Shown here one piece after another: positions 5,501 through 47,464 of a stretch of 64,000 bases of DNA. Under the pieces are notes generated by a model that ran no database searches, was not told the DNA's origin, and saw only the letters and a list, made by a program, of their open reading frames with translations. Source of the DNA: Oscillospiraceae bacterium (GTDB taxonomy: Bacteria; Bacillota; Clostridia; Oscillospirales; UBA929); contig WRLU01000007.1 in NCBI GenBank assembly GCA_009777475.1, forward strand, positions 6,532 to 70,531, read 5' to 3'. Position 1 is the stretch's first letter. Each line of letters begins with the position of its first letter. Made by a program: the position numbers and the translations under genes.

Positions 5501-6704
5501 CAGCCTGTAAGCTCGCCGCCGGAGTGGCGGCTGAAAAGACATTGGCGTAGTAAACCGTGCCTTTGTTATCACTGGTGTTCATCTTCATGGTGGTCTGTCC
5601 GAAGGGGTCATATTCGTAGGTGTAGCCGAAGGGGTCAGGGGTTGAGCTGGGCCTGGGTGCCGAAAGAGTCGGGAAGTCCGCCGACCAGTCGGGATTAATG
5701 AAACCGTTTACACAATAAGCGGCCCGACCGTTTGCCAAAACAGTCTGGTAAGAGAGCCAGTATTCTTTGCCAAAGCCGTTATAATTACGGCTGTCTAATA
5801 CCCTGAACGCACCGGTACCCGGATCATATGACGGAGGGGGCGAGGGACTCGCGGAGGGTTCCGGCACCCATCCGGTATTCGGGAGCGTATACTCAGGAAG
5901 AGCCTTGTCATCGTCCCATCCAACTATGACCACAGTGTGATCGGGCGTAACATTTGCCTGGTAATCGTAAAAATAGTCTTCGTCTGACCAGCCTGCCGTT
6001 GCGAGCTGATTGTCCGGCTTGTTTTGTGCATCATAACGGTCATCATCCATGTGAAGGGAAAGTGCCGCGCCGCCTTTCTCATAAACAGCCTGCTTGAGCA
6101 GATTCATATAATTAGCCTTGTCGTTTGACGAGGGTTGCTCAGGCAAATCAGGAATATATGAGATGCCGGAAATCCTGCGCCGGGAAGCAGGGTTATCCAG
6201 CGCAGCCAGGGATTCTTCGGGGCCCAGGATGTTCCTGTTGTCAGGCCCGCCGAGCTTGCCGCGCGTCAGATATGCCGAAACCATGCCGCGGTTTCCCTTG
6301 TCATACATAGATCTGCCGAAGCCCAGGCTTGAAGCCGCAGTACTCAGGGATTTATCCATATGTATATATGAATACCTCTCGCTGTTTTCTCCCATGGGGA
6401 AATAGCCGGACTGTTGGGCGGAAATCTCCAGAATCTCTTTAGCGGCGTGAACCCAAGAGTTTCTGTGTATCCCTGCCTGTTGAGAAACAGACGTGGACAC
6501 AGCCGGGAGGTATTCATCAGGGAATGTCCCCGTGGCCAAATCCCCTCCGAGCGTGAAAACATTGTCCTTCTCGTATTCCAGGTTGGACTCGGAGGCCGAC
6601 AAGGCAGCCGCCTCAGGAAAAACAGCCGGACCGTTGCCGGGTGGAAACAGGGAAATTAGAATTGCCGCCGCCAGCAGCCAAGCGAACATACGCATACGTT
6701 TCAT
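2553..6704 (-). CDS. Secreted multidomain surface protein with a papain-like (C1-type) domain followed by many bacterial Ig-like group 2 (Big_2) repeats
   Basis: I chose the ATG at 6704 (MKRMRMFAWLLAAAILISL..., a signal peptide) because it has RBS GAAAGGA upstream. DHTVVIVGWDD and a downstream N..G..YW block resemble the papain His/Asn region. Repeated ...V.W.S.N..VA.V...G.VTA.K.G.V.V.A... units are Big_2-like. Confidence 0.75.
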   Translation of the reverse strand: MKRMRMFAWLLAAAILISLFPPGNGPAVFPEAAALSASESNLEYEKDNVFTLGGDLATGTFPDEYLPAVSTSVSQQAGIHRNSWVHAAKEILEISAQQSGYFPMGENSERYSYIHMDKSLSTAASSLGFGRSMYDKGNRGMVSAYLTRGKLGGPDNRNILGPEESLAALDNPASRRRISGISYIPDLPEQPSSNDKANYMNLLKQAVYEKGGAALSLHMDDDRYDAQNKPDNQLATAGWSDEDYFYDYQANVTPDHTVVIVGWDDDKALPEYTLPNTGWVPEPSASPSPPPSYDPGTGAFRVLDSRNYNGFGKEYWLSYQTVLANGRAAYCVNGFINPDWSADFPTLSAPRPSSTPDPFGYTYEYDPFGQTTMKMNTSDNKGTVYYANVFSAATPAASLQAVSVFLMGQENEFEVYYLDEYSSADDLKIEEVKSKGVLVASGDELLPGYYTYPVFSGVDLPISGAYDPVFLPAKGRRFALVAVVTSYNKSAAIPIQSTARYPTSNGRGFASANGDVWLDASSNYKGSICLKAHVEDGIGLDVRGVKLPQSKDKDGADRTLDVDGTTHPLLALAPGSTEDLGPNHMPINANNVQTHLTQWHVAEITDDGAGNKTAGAFDRMWHNPEYTDPIFKDPDVVRIPGYPKWKDEDDPEILHAPPLPSGMPMSSDRIVESPFILTLKDPGEGVKIKTSSNTLNYDKEFLLRVTVFYTDRDPDTGLIPTPSQTDSGNPAQSFEYTTAVKVVPVPVQDIIIEPDMINERTVDMSANSSFSIKTTFIPEDVSDKRLEWRVTRSSNKLDTFSREYDPADPYSEEGPHIRVDDNGRVTAIKSAPGGDGFACVYAVWTCSVTGVQVTSNMARFRVLRVPATGISLSQKKENMSVGSKLTLGTPAIRPANASNKRVLWTTRNAKDEKGNDLAPGDESIVHIEPVLGIVTALKPGRVTVVATAEDTRDKDGNVQTAECEIIVTREPDVVLRIGKSATLKMLGASNNTVTWVFDGNDPEDKEVDRMTNNHFKTAISGNTLKITADKVNTVGNPTIVRALVMADSYYTYDPDDPGSGDFGSSTNGMEKIVIREQIFIMYAVVPIKKLELADKNRDNLPVKKANICIDATDDPMLAVRAESIDLQARLISPEDATMLAFEWTVPDKGKGIVDITVDDTDPTGASVNIKALKVGKVKVTGKNYNSGKKVSINITVLNFPQPGMISTKINGTDQLPFVMAVGKSKSLKSKIKAVKTISKEVRYFLEPAGTPVATVNEKGKVTANQEGLVRLVARGAPFDSTAPETTIVILCANMVKSVHLTANETKISVGQSVTFNASVLPENATNKTFVFSGGDTGGTIVDLSGNGTGPFTFTPTIPGTYKITATAVGNPKKKKTMKIVVTA

Positions 6705-7075
6705 TAGAACCAATCCTTTCTTTTTTGAGTGACAACAAGCCACCCGCCCCATTAAAGGGCCGTCAAATATCCGGGTCACAACCGGTCTTACCAGTAGTAT
6801 CGTAAGGAAACTTACTAAACTTTAGCCCAAATGAAAAATTTTTTGAAAAAATTTTAGGCACTGCCGAAACCCACCGGCACATAAATTCCCCCAACGCTAT
6901 TATACAGCAAGGGTTTTGTTCTGTCAAGCAGGGAAAAATATTTTTTTACACCAGCCTCCAGGCTGCCTTTGGGCCAGCATGCCGTGCTTAGTGCTTAACC
7001 GTAATTTCAGCTACGACCCTGCGCGGAATATCGGCATTCCCGAAATTACCTTAAGGGCATGGCCAGTCCCGGCAT

Positions 7076-7118
7076 AAGCTTAGCCCCAATTCGGCGGTGC
7101 CGAATTGGGGCTAAGCTT
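7076..7118 (-). terminator. Perfect 20-bp stem-loop just after the rubrerythrin stop (no U-tract)
   Basis: AAGCTTAGCCCCAATTCGGC - GGT - GCCGAATTGGGGCTAAGCTT. Confidence 0.5.
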
Positions 7119-7120
7119 AA

Positions 7121-7663
7121 TCAGTAATTCGTAACAGCGACTTCAAAATAAGCCTGCGGATGCACACACACCGGACAAACCCCAGGGGCATTCACTCCTT
7201 TATGAATATGACCGCAGTTCCGGCAAATCCATTCAGCAGGACTGTCTTTTTTAAAAACAGTGCCACCCTCAATATTGCCCAGCAATGCCAAGTAACGTTC
7301 CTCATGGTGCTTTTCTATGCTTCCGACCATAGAAAACAGTGCGGCAATGTCTGGGAAGCCCTCTGTCTTGGCAGTTTCGGCAAAATTTTTATACATTTCA
7401 GTCCACTCGGCGTGTTCTCCCGCGGCGGCATCCCTGAGGTTTTGTGCAGTACCGGGAATGCTGTCGCCGTGCAGCTTTTTAAACCAAATCTTAGCATGTT
7501 CCTTTTCGTTGTCAGCCGTTTCCTGAAAAATTGCCGCAACTTGCTCAAATCCGTCTTTTTTCGCTCTGGAGGCATAGTATGTGTACTTGTTGCGTGCCTG
7601 ACTTTCCCCTGCAAAAGCATCCATCAGATTTTTTTCGGTTTGAGTCCCTTTTAATTCAGCCAT
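7121..7663 (-). CDS. rbr: Rubrerythrin
   Basis: [31 protein letters not shown]... is a ferritin-like diiron domain, and the C-terminus has a rubredoxin-type CxxC...CPVC. ATG at 7663 has RBS AAAGGAGAAG. The longer listed ORF is an upstream read-through. Confidence 0.9.
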
Positions 7664-39331: not shown

Positions 39332-41485
39332 ATGAAAAGAAAAATCACAAGAAGCCTCTCGTTAGCCCTTGCGTTGATCTTCGCGCTAACCCTAATGCCC
39401 ATGGCGGGTCTGTCGGCTCCGGCGGGAGCCAGGTACACCGAGCTGGTAGCTCCGACTCTTGATGTTTCCCCCGGAATGTTCTCTGAGGGACTGGCGTTTG
39501 TGCGGACAAACGGTGCTGGGGCGCAATATCCCACATGGGGATACATGGATGCTTACGGCGATATTGTAATTTCCCTTGACGAGTATGATGAGAATCCCTT
39601 CTACGGCTCTAAGGGAGCGCAGTTTAGCGATGGACTTGCGGTTGTATGGAAAAATGGAAAAGCCGGCTACATAAATAGGGCAGGCGAAGCTGTCATACCC
39701 CCGCAATTTGTGTATGCTCATTTATTTGTTGATGGGTATGCCTATGCCCAGACCGATGAAAAGAGTGGAATTATTGATAAAACCGGGGCATTTGTTCACT
39801 CTACTCCTGTAGGCGGCGGGTCCGATGGCTATATGTATATCTACCAAGGTGGCATGGCGCGTATATCTGACGGATACAACGGTCTCCTAATTGACATTGA
39901 GAGCGGTGCCCACCTTGATGATGGTATGGGTGAGTTTATCTCGTGCAGCAACGGATTGATTTTATTCGTTGAAGAGGCTTCATCTGGCTATGTGTACCGT
40001 TTCTGGGAAAAAGACGAATTGATCCGATTAGGGGAAACCGGAGCTGGTTCACCGGCACATAAGTTCAGCCTGCCGTATTCTGTCAGCGACTTTGAATCGG
40101 GATTGATTATTGTTGAGGATGATACCGGTCGTGCTGCCGCCTTCAATGTGCAGGGGGATATAGTCGTTGACTGGTCTGAGTGTCTTGAGTTTTACGATGG
40201 CTTTGGTTATGTGGAAGATCCTGTACCCTGCCCCTGCGGCTGTGTTTTTGACGGTTGGGAATTAGAGGATTGGGAAGACGGCTACCAATACTGGACTGAG
40301 AAATTCTCCGGCGGCTGCGGAAATTACGAAGACTGCGATGACTGCAACCATTACGATTACGAGGATAAAATAGTTAATAAAAGCGGCAAAACTATTGCGA
40401 TAGTCGGTTATGGGGAAGACGAAAACGGCAGTTGGGATCGTTATGGCGACTGGGCAAGCGAGCATATGCTCGTTGTTCATGAGTCCACCTATGACGAAAG
40501 CACCGGGCAGGAAACAAGTGGCTCTTGCCTGATGGACTCAGAGGGTGAATACATCATTGCCCCCGGCATATATGATGAAATCGTTCCTAATCTTAACGGC
40601 GGCCTGATAACAGTAACCAAAAACACCAAAACAGGCATACTTCTGCTTGACGGCTACGAAATCCCCGAATATCCTAACTATTCCGGTTCAGGCACGACCG
40701 CCGGGAATGTTACCATTGTTGATAATGAAACCGGTGTTTCTCTTGACCTGAGTTCAGAGAGCTTTGATTTTGGCTCGGGTGCCGATGAATTTGTACCTAA
40801 GTCTGTCAGCATAATCACAAAAGCCGGAAAAGACGACAAATGGGTTGCCTACAACGAATCTAAGCATGAAATTGGCAAGCTGCTCAAGAAAGGCTGGCTT
40901 AGCCTCAAGTTTGCCAGCGAGGTCAACGGCGGCGGAACAGTTGTTGAGATTCCAGCCGTGGAGAAACGCGCAAAAACAGCCAAGACCCGCGATGACATAA
41001 GCAAAAAGCTTGCCGCATGGTATCCGAGCAGCACACCGAGCAAATGGATATTGGGCGACAGCGGCAAATTTAAGTCAGGAGATGTTTCAGCTGTTCGTGA
41101 CGGCTTAGAGTACTGTGTATTTGAGGGCAAAAAGCCTGACGAAAACTGGAAGCCTGTGCCTGCCGGAGGCTTCGATATAGCAACCGCCAAAACAGTTTAT
41201 GCTGTGCGCGAGGCTGCCAAAGAGGCCGGCGGCAAGTTCTACCCGGCAACCGCGTTTGTTAAGATTACCGACAAGGGCTACGGCAAGGCAACAAAGGTAA
41301 GCGTTAAAAATGGTACCGCTAAGCTGAAAAAAGGAATGATGTACAGGGTTAACAACGGAGCAATCACAGGACCCTTAGCTGACAAAGCCGCAGTTGATTT
41401 TACACCCGGTCAAAAGGTAGAATTCTGGATGGGAGCAACGGGCAAAAAACCTGAAACTATTAAGCAAACTGTTACTGTGTCATAG
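39332..41485 (+). CDS. Secreted WG-repeat (KWG-type) protein with a Cys/acidic-rich middle and an unknown C-terminal domain
   Basis: Signal peptide, then repeated GLA.V..NGK.GYI...G..VIPP.F units. Confidence 0.8.
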   Translation: MKRKITRSLSLALALIFALTLMPMAGLSAPAGARYTELVAPTLDVSPGMFSEGLAFVRTNGAGAQYPTWGYMDAYGDIVISLDEYDENPFYGSKGAQFSDGLAVVWKNGKAGYINRAGEAVIPPQFVYAHLFVDGYAYAQTDEKSGIIDKTGAFVHSTPVGGGSDGYMYIYQGGMARISDGYNGLLIDIESGAHLDDGMGEFISCSNGLILFVEEASSGYVYRFWEKDELIRLGETGAGSPAHKFSLPYSVSDFESGLIIVEDDTGRAAAFNVQGDIVVDWSECLEFYDGFGYVEDPVPCPCGCVFDGWELEDWEDGYQYWTEKFSGGCGNYEDCDDCNHYDYEDKIVNKSGKTIAIVGYGEDENGSWDRYGDWASEHMLVVHESTYDESTGQETSGSCLMDSEGEYIIAPGIYDEIVPNLNGGLITVTKNTKTGILLLDGYEIPEYPNYSGSGTTAGNVTIVDNETGVSLDLSSESFDFGSGADEFVPKSVSIITKAGKDDKWVAYNESKHEIGKLLKKGWLSLKFASEVNGGGTVVEIPAVEKRAKTAKTRDDISKKLAAWYPSSTPSKWILGDSGKFKSGDVSAVRDGLEYCVFEGKKPDENWKPVPAGGFDIATAKTVYAVREAAKEAGGKFYPATAFVKITDKGYGKATKVSVKNGTAKLKKGMMYRVNNGAITGPLADKAAVDFTPGQKVEFWMGATGKKPETIKQTVTVS

Positions 41486-41518
41486 AGATGGCCCAACAGG
41501 GACGTCAAGACAAAACAG

Positions 41519-41546
41519 GCGGCACCCTAAGGGGTGCCGCTTTGTT
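41519..41546. terminator. Bidirectional terminator between the convergent WG-repeat and spoVT genes
   Basis: GCGGCACCC - TAAG - GGGTGCCGC, with T-runs on both strands. Confidence 0.7.
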
Positions 41547-41558
41547 GGCCGCGGGAAG

Positions 41559-42101
41559 CTATGCTTCCATTTGTTTTCCCAGGAAATTAGCTACTGTTTG
41601 CGCCAGCTTGTGTTCGGTATCGGAAAAAGGCTGCCCGGATTCGCCAAGTATAAACATAACACAGCCCGATACATCGCCCTCTGCTAAAATAGGGGCGGCT
41701 ATGCCGGCAAAATGCTTGTCGGCATCATCCACGACACGAAGCTTGTTTTCGCCCTGCTTATACTGATAAACCTGACGGTTTTCCATAACCTTTTCCAAGT
41801 CCTCCCCAATGCGTTTTTCCAAGAGCTCGCGCTGGGGCGCGCCGGCAACTGCTATTATAGCATCCCGATCGCTGATGCAGACCATTCCGCCCGTGGTTTT
41901 TCTCATGGTTTCACAAAGCTGTCCTGCAAAATCAGAGAGCTCCCCCATAGGCGAATATTTTTTGAAAATAACCTCGCCGTCTTTATCAGTATAAATTTCA
42001 AGGGGGTCACCCTCACGTATACGCATGGTTCTGCGGATTTCCTTGGGGATTACAACACGCCCCAAATCATCAATTCGCCTGACAATTCCCGTTGCTTTCA
42101 T
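41559..42101 (-). CDS. spoVT: Stage V sporulation protein T (AbrB-type N-terminus plus GAF-like C-terminus)
   Basis: MKATGIVRRIDDLGRVVIPKEIRRTMRIREGDPLEIY... and a 180-aa size. Confidence 0.9.
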   Translation of the reverse strand: MKATGIVRRIDDLGRVVIPKEIRRTMRIREGDPLEIYTDKDGEVIFKKYSPMGELSDFAGQLCETMRKTTGGMVCISDRDAIIAVAGAPQRELLEKRIGEDLEKVMENRQVYQYKQGENKLRVVDDADKHFAGIAAPILAEGDVSGCVMFILGESGQPFSDTEHKLAQTVANFLGKQMEA

Positions 42102-42244
42102 GGTTTACCTCCTACACATGATTTAGGAGTAGTATCCGCAAAATTTGACAGACTATACAGCTTTTACGATGTTGGAAATACTTTGCAATAATTCTTCATG
42201 ATTTTATCGGATAAAGAGGGAACGGCGGAGAGGAGCCGCAGCCC

Positions 42245-43537
42245 TCAAACACAAAATGCGGCATAGTGCGGTATGGCTCGAATGCTGCCGTCTGTACCGA
42301 AATTCTTTTCAGAAAACCGGATAGAATAGGCAGCTTGGTATCTCTCCATGAACACACTTATGCTCTTGGAGCGTGTTTTGATGCCCTTCTTAACCTCTAT
42401 GCCGATAATGTCTGTTTCCTTTTGCATTACAAAATCAATCTCAGCGGTGTGTTCGCTCGTCCAGTAAAACAGCGGGTGTCCGTTTGCGGCCAAAGCCTGT
42501 GCGATATAATTTTCTGCCACTGACCCCATAAACAAATTAGACTCACCGCTTAATATGGTCTGTTGGGGAATGCCTGAACGCATAGCAAGCAGACCGACAT
42601 CGCCTGAATAGAGTTTGAACGATGAGAGGTCTTCGTATACTGCGATGGGGTTTGCGGCATGGTCAATCCTGCGGCACTTCAACACAACGCCCGCCTGAAC
42701 CAGCCAGTCGATAGACGCACCAAACAGAGATGCACCGCCGCCCTTTTGCACCACCTTGTACTGGAATTTTTTATTTTTCTTGGCGAGCTGGGCCGGGATA
42801 GACTCATAGCAAGCACGGATTTTTACCGTTTCAGAGGACTCTGCGTATTTCGCCATATCTGCCACATAGTTGTTGGCAATCTCATTTTGCAGCGGCGGAA
42901 TCAACACCGCTTTTCCGTTTTTGGAAAACGCCAAGACACAAGCGGGCATCCCCCCCACAATGAGATAGCAACGGTAATGCTCTATTGCTTTCTGGTGCAA
43001 TGCGGCTGGCATCGGCTCCATACTTGCACAGCAGGTACGAATGTCCTCAGCTAGCCGTTCTTCCCCAAGCGACCAAAGAAACTCCTCGAAATCCAAGGGA
43101 TACAAGGTCAGGCTTTCCACCTTGCCTACAGGGAAAGAATACTGCTCTCTATTGATAGCCACGCCTAGCAGACTGCCCGCGGCCGCCACATGGTATTCCG
43201 GTGCATTTTCGGCAAAGTATTTCAGTGAGGTCAATGCCCGCTCACAAGATTGGATTTCATCAAAGATAATTAGTGTCTCCCCGGGCAGTATGACATCGTT
43301 GGCCGTGGTTTCCAAAAACCGAATCAGCCGCTCGGGGGTTATATCCCCGGAAAAATATTGGGCAACCGCTTGGTTGGTTTCCAGATTTACATAAATCGCA
43401 TTTTTATAATGCTGCTCCCCGAACTGATTGAGAATGTAGGTTTTGCCCACTTGTCTAGCCCCATACAACAAGAGCGGCATTCTGCCCTCTGATTTGTTTT
43501 TCCAGTCAAACAGCCGCTCTTCAATTTTTCTTTGCAT
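42245..43537 (-). CDS. AAA-family ATPase with a DUF4143-type C-terminus
   Basis: Walker A YGARQVGKTY, Walker B LIIFDEIQ and a 430-aa size typical of the AAA_14/DUF4143 family. Confidence 0.85.
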   Translation of the reverse strand: MQRKIEERLFDWKNKSEGRMPLLLYGARQVGKTYILNQFGEQHYKNAIYVNLETNQAVAQYFSGDITPERLIRFLETTANDVILPGETLIIFDEIQSCERALTSLKYFAENAPEYHVAAAGSLLGVAINREQYSFPVGKVESLTLYPLDFEEFLWSLGEERLAEDIRTCCASMEPMPAALHQKAIEHYRCYLIVGGMPACVLAFSKNGKAVLIPPLQNEIANNYVADMAKYAESSETVKIRACYESIPAQLAKKNKKFQYKVVQKGGGASLFGASIDWLVQAGVVLKCRRIDHAANPIAVYEDLSSFKLYSGDVGLLAMRSGIPQQTILSGESNLFMGSVAENYIAQALAANGHPLFYWTSEHTAEIDFVMQKETDIIGIEVKKGIKTRSKSISVFMERYQAAYSIRFSEKNFGTDGSIRAIPHYAAFCV

Positions 43538-43623
43538 CCAACCGCCTCCCTCGGTTTATCATACTAGGGAGTTTGCCATTATGTCAAGAATAATATATTT
43601 ATATATTATTCTTTCCCACATAA

Positions 43624-44709
43624 CTATCTTGTGTTCATTTTCACCATTTGAAGTGTTTTCACCATCCACTCCAATGCACCGTTAAACCGATAGCCCTTAA
43701 ATCCCGAGGCTTCAAGAATTTCTGCAATCTCATTTTTAGAAATGTCAAGATTGATAAGTCCCTCCAGTCCGCCGCGTTCCTTGGCGATTTCCTGTGCATA
43801 GTCCCAATAAGTGCCGGAATAACCGAAGCTAGTGGACAACTCAGCCGGATTACCCACCGCCTGTACCACCATTTCCTCCGTGTCTTCGTAGAACAGGCTG
43901 CGTCCGTTATCATAAAGCGGATAAAAGGACTCGCCTTGTCCGCTCATTTTAATGGCCACATTGGAAAGATGCCGGTCGTCCTGCCGTGTGATAAAGTCCA
44001 GCAAAATCATTCGGACAATATCGTCTTTGTACTGTGGACGGACAGAAATCAGGTTTTGATATTCGTTGTCAGATCTGGCCCCCTCAAATAGGCGGCGAAA
44101 ATGCACAATGTATTCTCGAGAAAAGTCATAGAGAAAACTTGAAAATACTGTGTCTTTATCAACACGGCAAGCCGGGCAGCAGGGGACACCCAGCTTTTGT
44201 GCCAGCAGATAGACCGCTGTTTCTGATTCCACATCGGTATGCAGGGGGCTGATTCGCTGCTTATAGATGCCGTATTCACCGTTGTGTACGCCATAACGCT
44301 TGATGTTGTAGCCCTCCGGTGTATCAATGCTGTCGCCGATTAGGTCGATTTTCTGACGAAACACCGATGCGAATACATCGGTCATAATTGTTTCCAGTTG
44401 CTCATCCTCACTATGTGCGATCCACAATAGGTCTTTGGGATGGATGCCACGGGTAATTTCCGCAATTCGCAAAACATCGTAGTGAGACAGACCGCAGCGG
44501 AACAATATCCGCTCAATGTCCCGCCGGTCACGGCTGACCGTCCGTTCGGATAAGAACTCTGTGAATTGCTCGGGTGTCCAAAATTTTGCTCCGTGGGTGT
44601 ACAGAGAGACGGCTTGGTTATATTCAGGCAAGGCGAACGTAACGGCACCCGAACGGCTGACGGTGCCAATGGTTTCATCATTCCATTTCAAAATGCGTTG
44701 GTCGCCCAT
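43624..44709 (-). CDS. HipA-like kinase-fold protein (orphan)
   Basis: QDDRHLSNVAI fits the HipA catalytic D-x-H-x-x-N loop, and FYPLYDNG fits the PLYD Mg-binding motif. The start was moved to 44709 because the listed N-terminus overlaps its own promoter. Confidence 0.55.
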   Translation of the reverse strand: MGDQRILKWNDETIGTVSRSGAVTFALPEYNQAVSLYTHGAKFWTPEQFTEFLSERTVSRDRRDIERILFRCGLSHYDVLRIAEITRGIHPKDLLWIAHSEDEQLETIMTDVFASVFRQKIDLIGDSIDTPEGYNIKRYGVHNGEYGIYKQRISPLHTDVESETAVYLLAQKLGVPCCPACRVDKDTVFSSFLYDFSREYIVHFRRLFEGARSDNEYQNLISVRPQYKDDIVRMILLDFITRQDDRHLSNVAIKMSGQGESFYPLYDNGRSLFYEDTEEMVVQAVGNPAELSTSFGYSGTYWDYAQEIAKERGGLEGLINLDISKNEIAEILEASGFKGYRFNGALEWMVKTLQMVKMNTR

Positions 44710-44731
44710 AATCATCACTTTCCCTGAGGAT

Positions 44732-44759
44732 ATTATAGTATAATACGAAATAATGTCAA
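44732..44759 (-). promoter_or_regulatory. Sigma-A promoter of the HipA-like gene
   Basis: Minus strand TTGACA, a 16-nt spacer, then TATAAT. Confidence 0.6.
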
Positions 44760-44799
44760 TCAGCATTGCTCCGCGCCCTCTTCGTTAAAATGGATGCAA
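44752..44799. repeat. 48-bp promoter-upstream element, copy 1
   Basis: AATGTCAATCAGCATTGCTCCGCGCCCTCTTCGTTAAAATGGATGCAA. It matches copy 2 at 43 of 48 positions. Confidence 0.85.
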
Positions 44800-44829
44800 A
44801 AAGCACTGGCCGGTTTTCGGCTGGTGCTT
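44795..44829 (-). terminator. Terminator of the 133-aa membrane-protein gene
   Basis: AAGCACTGGCCG / CGGCTGGTGCTT stem. The minus strand continues TTTTTGC. Confidence 0.65.
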
Positions 44830-44844
44830 GGGATACATTGTGAT

Positions 44845-45246
44845 TTAGACCCACGGAACAGTTATATCATATTTCGCAAATATGATTTCCAACTTTTCTC
44901 TATTTTTTATGTTGTAGTATATATCGCCATCCCCTAGCCGCATTGTGTTGCAGCTATCTCCCGCCGGATAGATATGTAGTTTTTTACCGTTTCCCTCAAA
45001 AATCAACTCCACCACCCCAAAAGCACAAGCATAACCTTCCGGGTGGGCGATCCCTTTACAGAGGGAAATCAGTTCAACGAAATCCGCACCGTTTTTAATC
45101 TCCAAATGGATATTTTTATCGTGATGAATCAAGGTGATTTTTTCGGCAAAGCTCAAATTAACTGGTCTGAAGAAGAAAGCACAACAACTTCCAATGAGGA
45201 TGATTGGAATGAAAACTATTAGCGCAATTCGTATCCGTTTATTCAC
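44845..45246 (-). CDS. Hypothetical N-terminally anchored small protein (133 aa)
   Basis: GTG at 45246 lies 5 nt after GGGGGG. MNKRIRIALIVFIPIILIGSCCAFFF is a TM anchor. I recognise no family. Confidence 0.55.
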   Translation of the reverse strand: MNKRIRIALIVFIPIILIGSCCAFFFRPVNLSFAEKITLIHHDKNIHLEIKNGADFVELISLCKGIAHPEGYACAFGVVELIFEGNGKKLHIYPAGDSCNTMRLGDGDIYYNIKNREKLEIIFAKYDITVPWV

Positions 45247-45287
45247 GTTTACCCCCCAATACCAGTGCAATGTTATACCCTTGTCCA

Positions 45288-45316
45288 ATATTACCACGCC
45301 TTACCCAAAATGTCAA
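45288..45316 (-). promoter_or_regulatory. Sigma-A promoter of the 133-aa gene
   Basis: Minus strand TTGACA, a 17-nt spacer, then TGG-TAATAT. Confidence 0.6.
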
Positions 45317-45356
45317 TCAGCCGTGCTCCGCACCCTCTCCGTTAAAATGGGTGCAA
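45309..45356. repeat. 48-bp promoter-upstream element, copy 2
   Basis: AATGTCAATCAGCCGTGCTCCGCACCCTCTCCGTTAAAATGGGTGCAA. Confidence 0.85.
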
Positions 45357-45373
45357 CTTTTTTATTTGCACAG

Positions 45374-45402
45374 TTGACTTGAACTCGAAAATATCATATA
45401 AT
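45374..45402 (+). promoter_or_regulatory. Sigma-A promoter of the aspartate aminotransferase gene
   Basis: TTGACT, a 17-nt spacer, then TATAAT. Confidence 0.6.
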
Positions 45403-45438
45403 AAGTGCTATGTTGAGAAATACTAGGGAGGAACATCT

Positions 45439-46632
45439 ATGAAAAAATCATTATCCAGAATCGCCTCAAATGTCAAGGCCTCCAGCACCATCACCATTGA
45501 TGCCTTATTCAAAAAGATGAAGGCAGAGGGTCAAGACGTTATCGGCTTCGGCACCGGGGAGCCGGACTTTAATACACCTGATCATATCAAACAGGCGGGC
45601 ATTGATGCTATCGGCAAAAACCAGACCCGCTACACCCCGGCAGCAGGAACTCTGGAGCTGCGCCAGGCAATATGTGACGCGGCCAAAAAGGACTATGGGC
45701 TGAAATACGCACCAACACAGGTCGTTGTTTCCTGCGGTGCCAAGCACACTATTTCACAGCTTATGATGATACTCTGCAACCCCGGTGACGAGGTTATCCT
45801 GCCCTCCCCTTACTGGGTTAGCTATCCGGAAATGATTAGCATGGCAGGAGCCGTGCCTGTTGTTGTGGAGGGCTTGGAGGAAAACGGATTTTTGATTACC
45901 CCTGAGCAGCTTGCCAAGGCAATTACCCCGAAAACCAAGGCGGTTATCTTTAATTCGCCGTCTAACCCAACCGGCATGATCTACAAAAGAGAAGACCTCA
46001 AGGCCCTTTGTGATATTTGCGTTAAAGAGGGTATTTATATCGTATCCGATGAGGTATATGACAAGCTTGTATACGATGGAATCTCCTTCACCAGCATACC
46101 CGCCCTTGGCGAAGAGATCAAGGAGCTTGCAATTCTTGTAAACGCTGTTTCCAAAACCTACTGCATGACCGGCTGGCGTATCGGCTGGGCCTGCGCCAAT
46201 GCTGAAATCGCTAAAATTATGAGTGCCTATCAAAGCCACAGCGCATCGGCCCCGGCAAGCATGTCCCAGGCTGCCGCACTTGAGGCCATTAAAGGCGACC
46301 AGAGCGGAATTGAAAAAATGAGAAAAGAATTTGAAGGCCGCCGTGATTTTTTTGTAAAAAGAGTTTCTGAGATTGAGGGAATCAGTTGTTGCAAGCCTGA
46401 GGGTGCATTCTACATCATGCTCAATGTCAATGCCCTCATGGGGCGTACCATTTCGGGCAGAGCCATCAACAGCTCAGATGCTTTTGCCGAGACGTTGCTT
46501 GAAAAACAGGGTGTAGCAGTTGTCCCCTGTGAGGGCTTCGGCTCACCGGGATATGTTCGTATGTCCTACGCCGCTTCTATGGAAAACATCAGCAAAGGAC
46601 TTGACCGGATTGAAGCCTTTATAAAAGGGTAG
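45439..46632 (+). CDS. Aspartate/aromatic aminotransferase (class I PLP enzyme)
   Basis: FGTGEPDF, NSPSNPTG and SKTYCMTGWRIGW. 397 aa. Confidence 0.92.
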   Translation: MKKSLSRIASNVKASSTITIDALFKKMKAEGQDVIGFGTGEPDFNTPDHIKQAGIDAIGKNQTRYTPAAGTLELRQAICDAAKKDYGLKYAPTQVVVSCGAKHTISQLMMILCNPGDEVILPSPYWVSYPEMISMAGAVPVVVEGLEENGFLITPEQLAKAITPKTKAVIFNSPSNPTGMIYKREDLKALCDICVKEGIYIVSDEVYDKLVYDGISFTSIPALGEEIKELAILVNAVSKTYCMTGWRIGWACANAEIAKIMSAYQSHSASAPASMSQAAALEAIKGDQSGIEKMRKEFEGRRDFFVKRVSEIEGISCCKPEGAFYIMLNVNALMGRTISGRAINSSDAFAETLLEKQGVAVVPCEGFGSPGYVRMSYAASMENISKGLDRIEAFIKG

Positions 46633-46732
46633 CAGAGAGCCTGCTTTATAATAACCCCTCTGGCACCGGATGTCGGAGGGGTTTTGCAAGGGACTACCCA
46701 AAAAAAGATGAGAGGAGAACGCTGAATTCAAA

Positions 46733-47464
46733 ATGCCAACAGAAAACCGAAACCGATTCTCCGCGTTATTTAGAGCAGAACCGGACAGAGCTCAAGCAAA
46801 ATCCTCAATCGCGGATGCATGCTGCTTGCCGGCTTCCCCGCTGCTAATGGTTTTAGCGGCAGTATTTGCGGGAATATTGCTTATATCAAACGTAATCGCA
46901 AACCATATGCTCCAATTTTTCCAATGGACTGTTGATGCAGGGGCATTGACATTCCCGATTACCTATATTCTTTCGGATATTTTTTCTGAGGTATATGGTT
47001 ACAAGTGGTCACGCCGCATAGCCTGGACATCCCTTGCCGTTAACGGTGCATTTGCCCTAATTGTGCAACTGATCCTGCTATTGCCCCAGCCGGAGTGGTA
47101 TGACGGAATATTTTTCGCAACAGCGTTAGGCAATTCATGGAGGATTATCATAGCAAGCTTAATCGCTTATTGTATAGGTGATCTGGCAGACGACAGAGTA
47201 TTCCGCCACATGAAACGCAGGCATAAATCAACAAAAGGCTTTGCCGGACGAGCGTTAATTTCCTCATTTATAGGAAATTGCCTTGACACATCCCTTTTCT
47301 GCGTGACAGCGTTTGCGTTTGTCATGCCGTGGGATGAATTGCCGGGGATGATTATCACAGGCATATGCCTAAAGCTTGCGTATGAGTGTGTTCTGTTGCC
47401 TGTAACATGGAGAGTAGTAAAGGCGGTGAAAAAGCATGAAGATATTGATAACAGGGACAAGTAG
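46733..47464 (+). CDS. Queuosine-precursor transporter (YhhQ/DUF165, VUT family)
   Basis: LTFPITYILSDIFSEVYGYKWSRRIAW is the family signature. The protein is polytopic, and the true start may be internal. Confidence 0.8.
   Translation: MPTENRNRFSALFRAEPDRAQAKSSIADACCLPASPLLMVLAAVFAGILLISNVIANHMLQFFQWTVDAGALTFPITYILSDIFSEVYGYKWSRRIAWTSLAVNGAFALIVQLILLLPQPEWYDGIFFATALGNSWRIIIASLIAYCIGDLADDRVFRHMKRRHKSTKGFAGRALISSFIGNCLDTSLFCVTAFAFVMPWDELPGMIITGICLKLAYECVLLPVTWRVVKAVKKHEDIDNRDK

What the first reader, a model, noticed from the sequence alone, without database searches (positions are those of the whole stretch)
42245..45356. Accessory block: AAA/DUF4143 ATPase, orphan HipA-like kinase and a small membrane protein, with a duplicated 48-bp promoter element
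Three same-strand genes with no metabolic context sit between spoVT and an aminotransferase. The 361-aa protein carries HipA-type catalytic motifs (DDRHLSN, PLYD), but I saw no HipB-type or other antitoxin ORF. This gene and the next one, a 133-aa TM-anchored protein, are separate transcription units. Their promoters are embedded in a 48-bp element present twice (44752-44799 and 45309-45356, matching at 43 of 48 positions) that includes the -35 TTGACA and about 35 bp upstream of it. The shared upstream sequence implies co-regulation by one factor, or cassette-like duplication. The gene content is reminiscent of toxin-antitoxin or abortive-infection islands.
Basis: partly seen in the sequence, partly recalled or inferred. 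Interest (0 to 1): 0.55.

Follow-up and report, generated by a model that had tools for sequence, protein, structure and literature searches.

The report
Truncated HipA-like kinase with copied promoter
Three unrelated accessory genes sit side by side here: the kinase belongs to a widely transferred, apparently self-regulating kinase family but has lost its DNA-binding head, and the upstream half of its promoter was copied to drive the small gene next door.

Summary
In detail: there are three minus-strand genes, each with its own promoter, and a 48-bp direct repeat (43 of 48 identical, two copies only). The "one system" reading does not hold. In about 160 related loci the three genes almost never co-occur.

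- **42245-43537** is an ordinary PDC-S01-type AAA_14/DUF4143 gene. It carries that family's own promoter palindrome.
- **43624-44709** belongs to a large, unannotated family of single-gene HipA/CtkA-like kinases, 66-81% identical across several phyla. Members normally have an N-terminal HTH_17 domain and a palindromic operator, TTCGGAAYAAT-N9-10-ATTRTTCCGAA, across the -35. That fused domain explains the missing antitoxin gene.
- **In this copy** the HTH is gone but the native start codon is kept, both operator arms are decayed, and the -10 is now consensus. The kinase domain is intact at 151 of 152 conserved positions.
- **HTH loss recurs**: 18 of 82 loci lack it, scattered over the tree, and it goes with operator loss (p = 3e-10).
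- **The 48-bp repeat** is a local duplication. Its proximal 24 nt are the kinase family's promoter (relic left arm plus -35). The second copy supplies the -35 for a rare small membrane-protein gene.

Kinase function and toxicity remain inferred.

The parts
42245..43537 (-). AAA_14 + DUF4143 ATPase gene (430 aa). It is a PADLOC PDC-S01-type single-gene defence candidate and an independent module.
   Evidence: Pfam gives AAA_14 at 4e-26 and DUF4143 at 2e-33. PADLOC model PDLC04786 matches at E = 7.6e-164 over the full length. Relatives up to 86% identical occur in termite-gut and other gut metagenomes.
43558..43612 (-). Promoter of the AAA gene (-35 at 43587..43582, -10 at 43563..43558) together with a perfect 12+12 palindrome at 43587-43612. 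The palindrome is that gene family's own conserved upstream inverted repeat.
   Evidence: The promoter was found. The palindrome is the only window match to my operator-core pattern. The same architecture, GTTATGTCAAGAAAAAT...ATTTTTCTTGACATAAC with the -35 inside the right arm, is visible upstream of most of the 80 AAA relatives. As RNA the hairpin folds at -12.2 kcal/mol, z = -3.6.
43624..44709 (-). HipA/CtkA-like protein kinase gene (361 aa). It is an HTH-less member of a monocistronic HTH_17-kinase family.
   Evidence: More than 1000 homologues were found, the best 120 at 74-81% identity, most about 420 aa long and many with a recorded PF12728 hit. Homology with the family starts at R5 of the 361-aa protein, in the motif R-I-L-K-W. 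The protein differs from the family at 1 of 152 positions that are at least 95% conserved. Foldseek finds HipA, CtkA, PI4KII and HipT.
44732..44775 (-). Kinase promoter with a relic operator. The left arm is CGCGGAGCAAT (44775..44765), the spacer is GCTGA, the -35 is TTGACA (44759..44754), the right arm is ATTATTTCGTA (44754..44744) and the -10 is TATAAT (44737..44732).
   Evidence: Alignment to the family promoter TTCGGAAYAAT-N5-TTGAC-ATTRTTCCGAA-N7-TATACT gives 8 of 11 and 9 of 11 arm matches, with a joint chance probability of about 1e-5. The leader and start codon also align with the family's.
44752..44799 (-). 48-bp repeat, copy 1. The proximal 24 nt hold the relic left operator arm, the spacer and TTGACATT of the kinase promoter. 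The distal 24 nt are specific to this locus.
   Evidence: The sequence has no significant fold as RNA (z = -0.23).
44796..44829 (-). Intrinsic terminator of the small gene.
   Evidence: The hairpin folds at -15.9 kcal/mol (z = -3.7) and is followed by UUUUU.
44845..45246 (-). Gene for a 133-aa protein with an N-terminal transmembrane anchor and a Cys-containing domain of about 105 aa. The family is very rare.
   Evidence: Only 3 clusters were found among 5.8 billion proteins: one at 99% identity (same organism) and two at 48-54%. C63, C74 and C99 are conserved, as is the motif ELIFEG.GK. AlphaFold predicts a helix at residues 3-23, but the model is unreliable at pLDDT 52.
45288..45316 (-). Promoter of the small gene. 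The -35 TTGACA (45316..45311) lies inside repeat copy 2. The extended -10, TG-TAATAT (45293..45288), lies outside the repeat.
45309..45356 (-). 48-bp repeat, copy 2. It lies in the divergent intergenic region shared with the aminotransferase gene. Its left-arm remnant, TGCGGAGCACG, is further from the family consensus (7 of 11) than copy 1.
   Evidence: The aminotransferase promoter is at 45374-45402.

Best explanation
The block is a mosaic of three self-contained single-gene modules, not one system.

1. **The AAA_14/DUF4143 gene** is a standard PDC-S01-type ATPase-nuclease candidate defence gene. It brings that family's own promoter palindrome with it.

2. **The kinase** belongs to a large, so far unannotated, horizontally spread family of monocistronic HipA/CtkA-like Ser/Thr kinases.
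   - In most members an N-terminal HTH_17 domain is fused to the kinase.
   - In those members the promoter carries an 11-bp inverted repeat, TTCGGAAYAAT-N9-10-ATTRTTCCGAA, that straddles the -35.
   - The inferred mechanism is that a dimer of the protein binds its own operator and represses itself, as HipB does for hipBA and as proposed for the fused HTH of HipH/YjjJ.
   - In this genome an in-frame deletion removed the HTH but kept the native -35, leader, ribosome-binding site and start codon.
   - Both operator arms have since drifted and the -10 has become consensus TATAAT.
   - The intact kinase is therefore most likely made constitutively, without self-repression.

3. **The 48-bp repeat** is a local duplication of the upstream half of that kinase promoter: 24 nt of locus-specific DNA plus the relic left arm, spacer and -35.
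   - The duplication flanks a 509-bp insert that carries a rare small membrane-protein gene with its own -10 and terminator.
   - The small gene therefore runs on a borrowed -35.

**Shown:** family membership, HTH absence, operator relic, non-co-occurrence of the three genes, and the promoter and terminator anatomy.

**Inferred:** kinase activity, toxicity or target, HTH-operator binding, and constitutive expression.
For: **Family and HTH.**
- 1078 homologues were found, the top 120 at 74-81% identity, mostly 413-440 aa; many have a recorded PF12728 hit and one source names its protein a helix-turn-helix domain-containing protein.
- The alignment shows that the window protein lacks about 60 N-terminal residues and joins the family at RxLKW.
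- P0027 matches HTH_17 at 2.5e-7, above the gathering score.

**Monocistronic, in varied housekeeping contexts.** One copy lies between a beta-lactamase-like gene and a methyltransferase, right after ssrA. Another lies between proS and a shikimate kinase gene.

**Spread.** The family occurs in 80 species, including Oscillospiraceae, Lachnospiraceae, Coriobacteriales, Treponema, Synergistaceae and Anaerobacterium chartisolvens DSM 27016, at 66-80% identity. The nearest relative of the window's aminotransferase is only 62% identical.

**Operator.**
- The palindrome is conserved at a fixed place over the -35, in DNA that is otherwise unconserved.
- It is present in 51 of 60 HTH-bearing loci and in 2 of 22 loci scored HTH-less in that first-pass census (Fisher p = 2.8e-10).

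**HTH census.** 61 loci have the HTH in frame, 18 have none, 1 is disrupted and 2 are partial. The HTH-less tips are scattered over the NJ tree. Clean in-frame deletions are also seen in L018, L022 and L067.

**Window promoter.** It aligns to the family promoter from the left arm through the start codon. The arms match at 8 of 11 and 9 of 11 positions, with a joint chance probability of about 1e-5.

**Kinase domain.** It is intact, with 1 deviation (I349M) at 152 conserved columns.

**Fold.** HipA, CtkA, PI4KII and HipT are the top PDB matches, at E = 2e-5 to 1e-3. There is also a transitive sequence link: P0251 matches the query at 6.6e-11 and matches HipA_C at 36.7 bits, above the gathering score. 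An annotated Clostridium butyricum HipA-domain protein matches at 26% identity, E = 1e-6.

**Non-co-occurrence of the three genes:**

**The AAA family's own palindrome:**
Against: - No experiment bears on kinase activity, toxicity or HTH-operator binding.
- The Pfam HipA_C score is below the gathering score (22.9 against 30.5 bits). Profile comparison with E. coli HipA and HipH is not significant. The structural model has a poor N-lobe, with overall pLDDT 64.
- The direction and mechanism of the 48-bp duplication could not be reconstructed. No close relative of this organism exists in the collections, and the only other copy of the locus (L007) is identical.
- A 48-bp flanking duplication around a 509-bp insert is not the signature of any transposase I can name.
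- The link between operator loss and HTH loss is partly trivial. In several loci a single deletion removed both.
- Only 64 kb of the genome is visible, so a full-length paralogue that could act in trans cannot be excluded.
Confidence: 0.6

Rival explanations
1. The three genes form one functional toxin-antitoxin or abortive-infection island, and the 48-bp element co-regulates its parts.
For: The three genes are adjacent on the same strand and lie between housekeeping genes. The AAA gene is a PADLOC defence candidate. The kinase and an AAA gene are also neighbours in L013 and L129.
Against: In 80 kinase loci from different species, the AAA gene is adjacent once (plus one fragment) and the small gene never. 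In 80 AAA loci, the kinase is adjacent once, in the opposite order. Each gene has its own promoter, and a terminator follows the small gene. Each gene family carries its own conserved promoter architecture wherever it occurs. The 48-bp element is absent from the AAA gene.
Confidence: 0.06
2. The 48-bp repeat is a working shared operator. A trans-acting factor, for example a full-length HTH-kinase paralogue elsewhere in the genome, binds both copies and co-regulates the kinase and the small gene.
For: Both copies keep CGGAGCA at the left-arm position with the correct 5-nt spacing to the -35. Outside five substitutions, the 24 distal nucleotides are also conserved between the copies. Only 64 kb of the genome could be inspected.
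Against: Copy 2 has no right arm at all, and copy 1 has two mismatches in each arm. No second kinase or HTH copy is present in the window. The element has no other copy in the window, and its 23-nt core has no exact match in the genome or metagenome collections. In other HTH-less loci the operator likewise decays, which fits disuse.
Confidence: 0.12
3. The small membrane protein has replaced the lost HTH as the kinase's partner, acting as antitoxin, immunity protein or sensor. That would make this a new two-gene module.
For: It lies immediately upstream and shares the promoter element. Its only distant homologues also sit directly next to a toxin gene, relB-yafQ.
Against: It has an N-terminal membrane anchor and a Cys-containing, probably extracytoplasmic, domain. 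It is transcribed separately and a terminator follows it. None of the 17 other HTH-less kinase loci, nor any kinase locus at all, has a homologue nearby. Its GC content of 39.8%, against 48% for its neighbours, suggests a separate origin.
Confidence: 0.07
4. The HTH-less kinase is a decaying remnant on its way to loss and has no current function.
For: HTH-less members occur only as single tips on the tree, never as clades. As a group they carry more substitutions at conserved positions, with a mean of 4.0 against 1.2, p = 3e-7.
Against: The window copy has an intact ORF and differs at only 1 of 152 conserved positions. All catalytic residues are kept. It also has a perfect TTGACA/TATAAT promoter and a good ribosome-binding site. 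The group comparison is biased, because the conserved columns were defined on the HTH-bearing members.
Confidence: 0.15

Closest known systems
HipH / YjjJ of E. coli K-12 (monocistronic HipA-homologous kinase with a fused N-terminal HTH; Gerdes et al. 2021, PMC8262856; Gratani et al. 2022, PMC9948734)
   Same: The architecture and logic of the family match. It is a single-gene operon with no separate antitoxin, an N-terminal DNA-binding HTH fused to a HipA-superfamily kinase, and the catalytic D-x-H-x-x-N and Mg-binding Asp motifs.
   Different: There is no detectable sequence membership. NCBIfam HipA/HipH models give no hit and hhalign against HipH gives a probability below 1%. The HTH is of the HTH_17 (excisionase/MerR-like) type rather than the Cro-like type. 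The window copy lacks the HTH altogether. The operator described here has no counterpart in the HipH papers I read.
HipBA type II toxin-antitoxin module
   Same: The kinase superfamily fold is shared. A palindromic operator overlaps the promoter and is presumably bound by an HTH dimer. This matches the account in PMC8262856 of HipB binding palindromic operators.
   Different: There is no hipB gene. Pfam HipA_C is below threshold and no Couple_hipA or HipA_N domain was detected. The family is far more conserved, at 66-81% across phyla, than I would expect for a toxin-antitoxin toxin. That expectation rests on my own knowledge.
Helicobacter pylori CtkA (JHP940) kinase, PDB 3akj/3akk/3akl
   Same: It gives the best structural superposition of the model, with a target-normalised TM-score of 0.49-0.53 and rmsd of 5-7 Å over about 280 columns.
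   Different: Sequence identity is 14-16%. CtkA is a secreted proinflammatory kinase encoded on an ICE (PMC5785829 mentions ctkA in tfs elements). It has no HTH or operator.
PADLOC PDC-S01 (AAA ATPase + PD-(D/E)XK DUF4143 single-gene defence candidate)
   Same: The 430-aa protein is a full-length, high-scoring member. PDC-S01 is described as a very common single-gene candidate combining an ATPase with a PD-(D/E)XK domain (PMC12988326).
   Different: Nothing distinguishes this copy. [quoted passage not shown]
PADLOC PDC-M03 (HipA + HIRAN two-gene candidate; compare the HipL and HipIN families of Gerdes et al.)
   Same: The PDC-M03A models hit the catalytic-loop region weakly (E = 1e-9 over about 60 residues).
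   Different: The match is partial and there is no HIRAN partner gene. PDC-M03 is described as 2 of 2 genes, HipA and a HIRAN-domain protein (PMC13245101).

Membership tests
Pfam HipA_C (PF07804) / HipA kinase superfamily | Whole-protein score at or above the gathering threshold of 30.5 bits | tested here: not met
   The window protein scores 22.9 bits at E = 7.6e-5. Full-length relative P0027 scores 17.2 bits. A more distant family member, P0251, does pass at 36.7 bits, so homology is supported only through that intermediate.
Pfam HipA_C (PF07804) / HipA kinase superfamily | Catalytic loop D-x-H-x-x-N and Mg-binding Asp in a YD motif | tested here: met
   D245-R-H247-L-S-N250 and P-L-Y-D267 align with DaHgkN and PwYD of Shewanella oneidensis HipA. 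D245, N250 and D267 are invariant and H247 nearly invariant in the 31-sequence alignment.
Pfam HipA_C (PF07804) / HipA kinase superfamily | HipA/PI4K-like kinase fold | tested here: inconclusive
   The top Foldseek PDB hits are all HipA, CtkA, PI4KII or HipT, at E = 2e-5 to 1e-3 with probability about 1.0. However, TM-scores are only 0.3-0.5, because the N-lobe of the model has low confidence (mean pLDDT 64).
hipBA type II toxin-antitoxin module | Adjacent, co-transcribed HipB-type HTH antitoxin gene | tested here: not met
   There is no HTH ORF on either side. The upstream neighbour is a membrane protein followed by a terminator, and the downstream neighbour is the AAA gene with its own promoter.
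hipBA type II toxin-antitoxin module | Growth arrest on kinase expression that is relieved by the antitoxin | not testable with these tools
   This requires expression experiments.
HipH / YjjJ clade | Sequence membership in the clade | tested here: not met
   No NCBIfam model was hit at E below 0.1. hhalign of the family profile against E. coli HipH gives a probability of 0.45%.
HipH / YjjJ clade | N-terminal HTH fused to the kinase in a monocistronic operon | tested here: not met
   The family meets this feature: 61 of 82 loci carry an in-frame HTH_17 and the gene is monocistronic. The window copy has no HTH in any frame. The architecture is therefore analogous in the family and lost here.
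HTH_17-kinase family defined in this report | Full-length similarity of the kinase part to family members | tested here: met
   Identity is 74-81% over 97-99% of the query for the best 120 hits. 151 of 152 conserved positions are kept.
HTH_17-kinase family defined in this report | Palindromic operator TTCGGAAYAAT-N9-10-ATTRTTCCGAA across the -35 | tested here: inconclusive
   A relic is present at the homologous position, with 8 of 11 and 9 of 11 arm matches. It fails the strict pattern that 51 of 60 HTH-bearing loci pass.
PADLOC PDC-S01 | Single gene encoding AAA_14 ATPase + DUF4143 with a full-length match to a PDC-S01 HMM | tested here: met
   PDLC04786 matches at E = 7.6e-164, covering residues 1-430 of the protein and positions 3-432 of the 439-position model. 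Both Pfam domains are present.
PADLOC PDC-S01 | Protection against phage | not testable with these tools
PADLOC PDC-M03 (HipA + HIRAN) | Both genes present: a kinase matching M03A over its length and a HIRAN-domain partner | tested here: not met
   Only residues 245-306 match M03A models. No HIRAN gene is nearby.

The most novel reading that the evidence does not exclude
The HTH_17-fused HipA/CtkA-like kinases may be a previously undescribed class of single-gene, self-repressing toxin modules, in which the HTH acts as a cis-antitoxin and autorepressor. They would move as naked single genes between phyla of gut anaerobes. Repeated, independent loss of the HTH with decay of the operator would mark escape from self-control, or domestication. 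The locus in this window would catch that process, together with co-option of the orphaned promoter half by a newly inserted ORFan gene.
Probability: 0.3. Interest if true: 0.6.

Novelty: new variant of a known kind. Interest (0 to 1): 0.42.

Why it matters
For this window, the result turns an apparent three-gene defence island into three unrelated hitchhiking genes. That guards against over-calling such blocks as "systems".

More broadly, the kinase points to a large family. It has more than 1000 members and is named only "hypothetical" or "helix-turn-helix domain-containing" in the source annotations seen here. No NCBIfam model covers it, and its Pfam HipA_C match falls below threshold.

The family has the same design logic as E. 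coli HipH/YjjJ: a DNA-binding head fused to a HipA-type kinase in a single gene. Unlike HipH in the papers I read, it also comes with a clearly readable operator.

About a fifth of the natural variants have lost the head. This offers a direct handle on an open question for HipH-like kinases, namely what the fused HTH does: autorepression, cis-inhibition, or both.

A cultured carrier exists, Anaerobacterium chartisolvens DSM 27016, so the question can be tested.

Tried and rejected
- **Rfam.** A scan of 41000-47000 at E up to 1 gave no hit.
- **RNA structure in the 48-bp element.** Copy 1 has z = -0.23 and copy 2 has z = -1.74. The 6-bp hairpin visible in copy 2 is broken in copy 1 without compensating changes, so I rejected this idea.
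- **More copies of the 48-bp element.** None were found in the window, and its 23-nt core has no exact match in 185,579 species genomes or in JGI metagenome contigs.
- **Reconstructing the empty site.** The aminotransferase's nearest relatives are at most 62% identical and share no synteny. The only other copy of the locus, L007, is base-for-base identical over the stretch compared. The order of events behind the duplication therefore stays open.
- **A second family operator downstream of the kinase.** I briefly took the palindrome at 43587-43612 for one, because it is the only window match to GAAYAAT-N8-12-ATTRTTC. I rejected this. The same long palindrome, with the -35 in its right arm, precedes most relatives of the AAA gene, so it belongs to that gene.
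- **Symmetric covariation inside the operator.** My first impression of AATAAT/ATTATT against AACAAT/ATTGTT did not hold up: position 8 is symmetric in only 22 of 43 operators. Only the outermost position covaries (38 of 43), and that could reflect shared ancestry.
- **Profile comparison with E. coli HipA and HipH.** Not significant. The profile has Neff 1.5, so power is low. A profile search of PDB sequences found nothing.
- **Structure of the small protein.** pLDDT was 52, which is unusable, so no fold search was run.
- **Phage or plasmid carriage of the kinase.** There is no relative in IMG/VR. Only matches at about 25% identity turned up in the INPHARED phage and PLSDB plasmid collections.
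- **Lipoprotein reading of the small protein.** The LIGSC lipobox-like motif is not conserved in homologues, so I call it a signal anchor.
- **Literature.** Searching for HipA together with HTH_17 or excisionase fusions found no description.

Full report
**1. What is in the sequence.**

Three genes lie on the minus strand between spoVT (41559-42101) and an aspartate-type aminotransferase gene (45439-46632, plus strand).
- 42245-43537 encodes a 430-aa protein with AAA_14 and DUF4143 domains.
- 43624-44709 encodes a 361-aa kinase-like protein.
- 44845-45246 encodes a 133-aa protein with an N-terminal membrane anchor.

The longest-ORF starts at 44766 and 45297 are not the real starts, because the promoters lie inside those extensions.

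The 48-bp direct repeat is real. It lies at 44752-44799 and 45309-45356, with 43 of 48 positions identical and 557 bp between starts. Only these two copies exist in the window, against none in shuffled sequence. A 23-nt core has no exact match in the genome or metagenome collections.

Read on the minus strand, each copy ends in TTGACATT. Each has a good -10 box at 16-17 nt. The AAA gene has a promoter of its own at 43587..43558.

A strong intrinsic terminator follows the small gene at 44796-44829, with -15.9 kcal/mol, z = -3.7 and a U5 tail.

**2. The three genes are not a unit.**

I collected 80 loci that encode relatives of the kinase, each from a different species' genome. A tblastn search of those loci found an AAA_14/DUF4143 relative next to the kinase only in L013, plus a fragment in L069. 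It found the small protein in none of them.

I also collected 80 metagenome loci that encode relatives of the AAA protein. Only L129 has the kinase alongside, and there the order is reversed, with the AAA gene first.

The small protein is extremely rare. Only three clusters were found among 5.8 billion proteins. One is the same organism (L007, identical DNA). The two distant ones, at 48-54% identity, sit directly after a relB-yafQ pair.

**3. The AAA gene.**

It is a full-length member of PADLOC's PDC-S01 (E = 7.6e-164). PDC-S01 is a very common single-gene defence candidate that combines an ATPase with a PD-(D/E)XK domain. [quoted passage not shown]

Relatives reach 86% identity.

Upstream of most of these relatives there is a long inverted repeat whose right arm contains the -35, of the form GTTATGTCAAGAAAAAT...ATTTTTCTTGACATAAC. 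The perfect palindrome at 43587-43612 in the window is this feature.

**4. The kinase and why it looks orphaned.**

A protein search found 1078 relatives. The best 120 are 74-81% identical, and most are 413-440 aa rather than 361 aa. Many have a precomputed PF12728 (HTH_17) hit.

The alignment shows a conserved N-terminal segment of about 57 residues, MxxEYxTAQQAAxKWxISDRRVRVLCxEGxIxGAVKxGKSYKIP, followed by a short linker. The window protein lacks both. It joins the family at R-x-L-K-W. P0027 matches HTH_17 above Pfam's threshold.

The gene is monocistronic and sits in unrelated housekeeping neighbourhoods.
- In L001 it lies immediately after the tmRNA gene.
- In L004 it lies between proS and a shikimate kinase gene.

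The carriers span Oscillospiraceae, Lachnospiraceae, Family XIII, Coriobacteriales, Treponema, Synergistaceae and the cultured Anaerobacterium chartisolvens, at 66-80% identity. By contrast, the window's aminotransferase has no relative above 62%. This pattern indicates horizontal spread under strong constraint.

No close relative was found on viral contigs, phage records or plasmids.

**5. Is it HipA-like?**

At sequence level the case is marginal.
- HipA_C scores 22.9 bits against a gathering score of 30.5.
- No NCBIfam HipA or HipH model is hit.
- hhalign against E. coli HipA and HipH is not significant, though with a shallow profile.

The catalytic D-x-H-x-x-N loop and the Y-D Mg site do align with Shewanella HipA. 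These residues are invariant or nearly invariant in the family.

A distant family member, P0251, matches the query at 6.6e-11 and passes HipA_C at 36.7 bits.

The AlphaFold model is good for the C-lobe and poor for the N-lobe, with mean pLDDT 64. Its best PDB matches are all HipA, H. pylori CtkA, PI4K type II or HipT, at E = 2e-5 to 1e-3 and TM-scores of 0.3-0.5.

I accept superfamily membership. I do not accept membership of the HipA, HipT or HipH families proper.

**6. A conserved operator, and its link to the HTH.**

Upstream of the HTH-bearing genes, in DNA that is otherwise unalignable, there is a fixed architecture: TTCGGAAYAAT, 5 nt, TTGAC, ATTRTTCCGAA, about 7 nt, TATACT, a leader, then the start codon. 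This is an 11-bp inverted repeat with a 9-10 nt centre that contains the -35.

A strict pattern for it is met in 51 of 60 HTH-bearing loci and in 2 of the 22 loci that a first-pass regex scored as HTH-less (Fisher p = 2.8e-10).

A refined census by tblastn in all frames gives the following:

| Class | Loci |
|---|---|
| In-frame HTH | 61 |
| No HTH at all | 18 |
| Disrupted HTH | 1 |
| Partial kinase match | 2 |

On a neighbour-joining tree of the kinase domains, the HTH-less genes are scattered as single tips among HTH-bearing ones. The loss has therefore happened many times.

Some losses are clean in-frame deletions that keep the promoter.
- L018 reads TTG-GREKAKSA and still has a perfect operator.
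- L022 reads M-RWLKW.
- L067 reads M-EKPDDNRFKD.

Others removed the whole 5' region.

The natural inference is that the HTH binds the palindrome as a dimer and represses its own promoter. This parallels HipB on the hipBA operators and what has been proposed for the fused HTH of HipH (PMC8262856). That inference has not been demonstrated.

**7. The window's copy in that frame.**

On the minus strand, the kinase promoter reads CGCGGAGCAAT GCTGA TTGAC ATTATTTCGTA T TATACTATAAT ATCCTCAGGGAAAGTGATGATT ATG GGC GAC CAA CGC ATT TTG AAA TGG.

It aligns with the family promoter from the left arm to the start codon.
- The arms match the consensus at 8 of 11 and 9 of 11 positions, with a joint chance probability of about 1e-5.
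- The leader AGTGATGATTATG matches the family's AGTGATTGCTTTG.
- The -10 is TATAAT, where the family has TATACT.

This copy is therefore an in-frame HTH deletion of a family member. It has a decayed operator and a consensus promoter.

The kinase domain itself is intact. At the 152 columns that are at least 95% conserved among HTH-bearing members, it differs once (I349M). HTH-less genes as a group average 4.0 differences. That comparison is biased, because the columns were defined on the HTH-bearing members.

No second family member or HTH is present in the 64-kb window.

**8. What the 48-bp repeat is.**

The proximal 24 nt of each copy are the relic left arm, the 5-nt spacer and TTGACATT, which together form the upstream half of the kinase family's promoter. 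The distal 24 nt, TTGCAYCCATTTTAACGRAGAGGG, match nothing else.

The similarity stops exactly after TTGACATT.
- Downstream of copy 1 come the family's right arm, the -10 and the leader.
- Downstream of copy 2 comes unrelated sequence, with an extended -10 (TG-TAATAT) at 17 nt, followed by the small gene.

Copy 1 is closer to the family consensus at the two adjacent positions where the copies differ in the left arm (AAT against ACG).

The simplest description is X-[48]-Z-[48]-Y. Here Y is the rest of the kinase promoter and gene. Z is 509 bp and carries the small gene with its own -10, ribosome-binding site and terminator.

This is a local duplication of the promoter's upstream half around an inserted gene. 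That gene has a lower GC content, 39.8% against 48%, and it now uses the duplicated -35.

The 10% divergence between the copies shows that the event predates the split between the window and L007, which are identical over the stretch compared.

I could not determine the mechanism. It could be replication-based duplication with insertion, recombination with a circular intermediate, or an att-like junction.

The element has no significant RNA fold and no Rfam match.

**9. Mechanism, with confidence.**

Most likely (about 0.6 for the composite), the locus holds three independent modules. The kinase is expressed constitutively from a de-repressed consensus promoter and acts as a HipA-type Ser/Thr kinase on an unknown cellular target. 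The small gene is co-expressed only in the sense that it uses a copy of the same -35 region.

The rivals are listed below, with the confidence I give each.

| Rival | Confidence |
|---|---|
| Joint three-gene system | 0.06 |
| The repeat as a live shared operator for a trans-acting paralogue | 0.12 |
| The small protein as a replacement partner for the kinase | 0.07 |
| The kinase as a functionless remnant | 0.15 |

**10. Comparison and novelty.**

The nearest known design is HipH/YjjJ, but sequence membership was tested and not met. The HTH is also of a different type.

I found no description of an HTH_17-HipA-like fusion in the searchable literature. The sources name these proteins only "hypothetical" or "helix-turn-helix domain-containing".

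I therefore rate the finding as a new variant of a known kind. The window's locus itself is an ordinary accessory mosaic. The wider interest lies in the family, its readable operator and the recurrent loss of its HTH.

Noticed in passing
window 43587-43612; loci L095-L174, about 40-90 nt upstream of the AAA gene start: Relatives of the AAA_14/DUF4143 (PDC-S01) gene carry a conserved long inverted repeat, of the form GTTATGTCAAGAAAAAT...ATTTTTCTTGACATAAC. Its right arm contains the -35 of the gene's promoter. It could be an insulating terminator-promoter unit or a regulator binding site that travels with the gene.
   Followed up: partly
L001 5400-5775 (tmRNA) and 6001-7260 (kinase): In one relative, the HTH-kinase gene sits about 150 bp downstream of the ssrA (tmRNA) gene, which is a classic integration hotspot. 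No integrase is nearby. The family seems to move as a bare single gene.
   Followed up: partly
L129 1-1137 (AAA) and 1253-2335 (kinase); L013: A termite-gut contig has a 79%-identical AAA gene followed by another HTH-less kinase (360 aa, 73% identity). The gene order is the reverse of the window's. L013 has a full AAA gene and AAA fragments around an HTH-bearing kinase. The adjacency recurs but is not ordered, which fits shared variable regions rather than an operon.
   Followed up: partly
L104 2995-4302 (AAA), 4329-4865 (DUF1706/DinB_2), 5042-5584 (spoVT): A second, distant genome, whose SpoVT is only 54% identical, also has a PDC-S01-type AAA gene just upstream of spoVT on the same strand. 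This could be a recurrent insertion spot or an old linkage.
   Followed up: partly
L008 4492-5520; L009; L010: The only distant homologues of the small membrane protein lie 38 nt downstream of a relB-yafQ toxin-antitoxin pair on the same strand. Both known contexts of this rare protein are therefore next to a toxin-type gene.
   Followed up: partly
kinase-domain alignment of loci L001-L090: HTH-less family members carry more changes at otherwise conserved positions, with a mean of 4.0 against 1.2 and Mann-Whitney p = 3e-7. They appear only as single tips on the tree. This hints that HTH loss is usually a step towards gene decay, although the window copy is an exception. The comparison is biased by how the columns were chosen.
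   Followed up: partly
window 45439-46632: The housekeeping aminotransferase has no relative above 62% identity among 5.8 billion proteins, apart from its own MAG. The nearest relatives share no synteny. The host is therefore a poorly sampled Oscillospiraceae lineage. The source names it MAG protein FWH04_03300, and the twin contig comes from JGI sample 3300002469.
   Followed up: no
window 39332-41485: A 717-aa protein with a signal-peptide-like N-terminus and WG_beta_rep repeats (6 of the 7 Cys between residues 306 and 342) lies on the far side of spoVT, on the opposite strand. It was not examined further.
   Followed up: no
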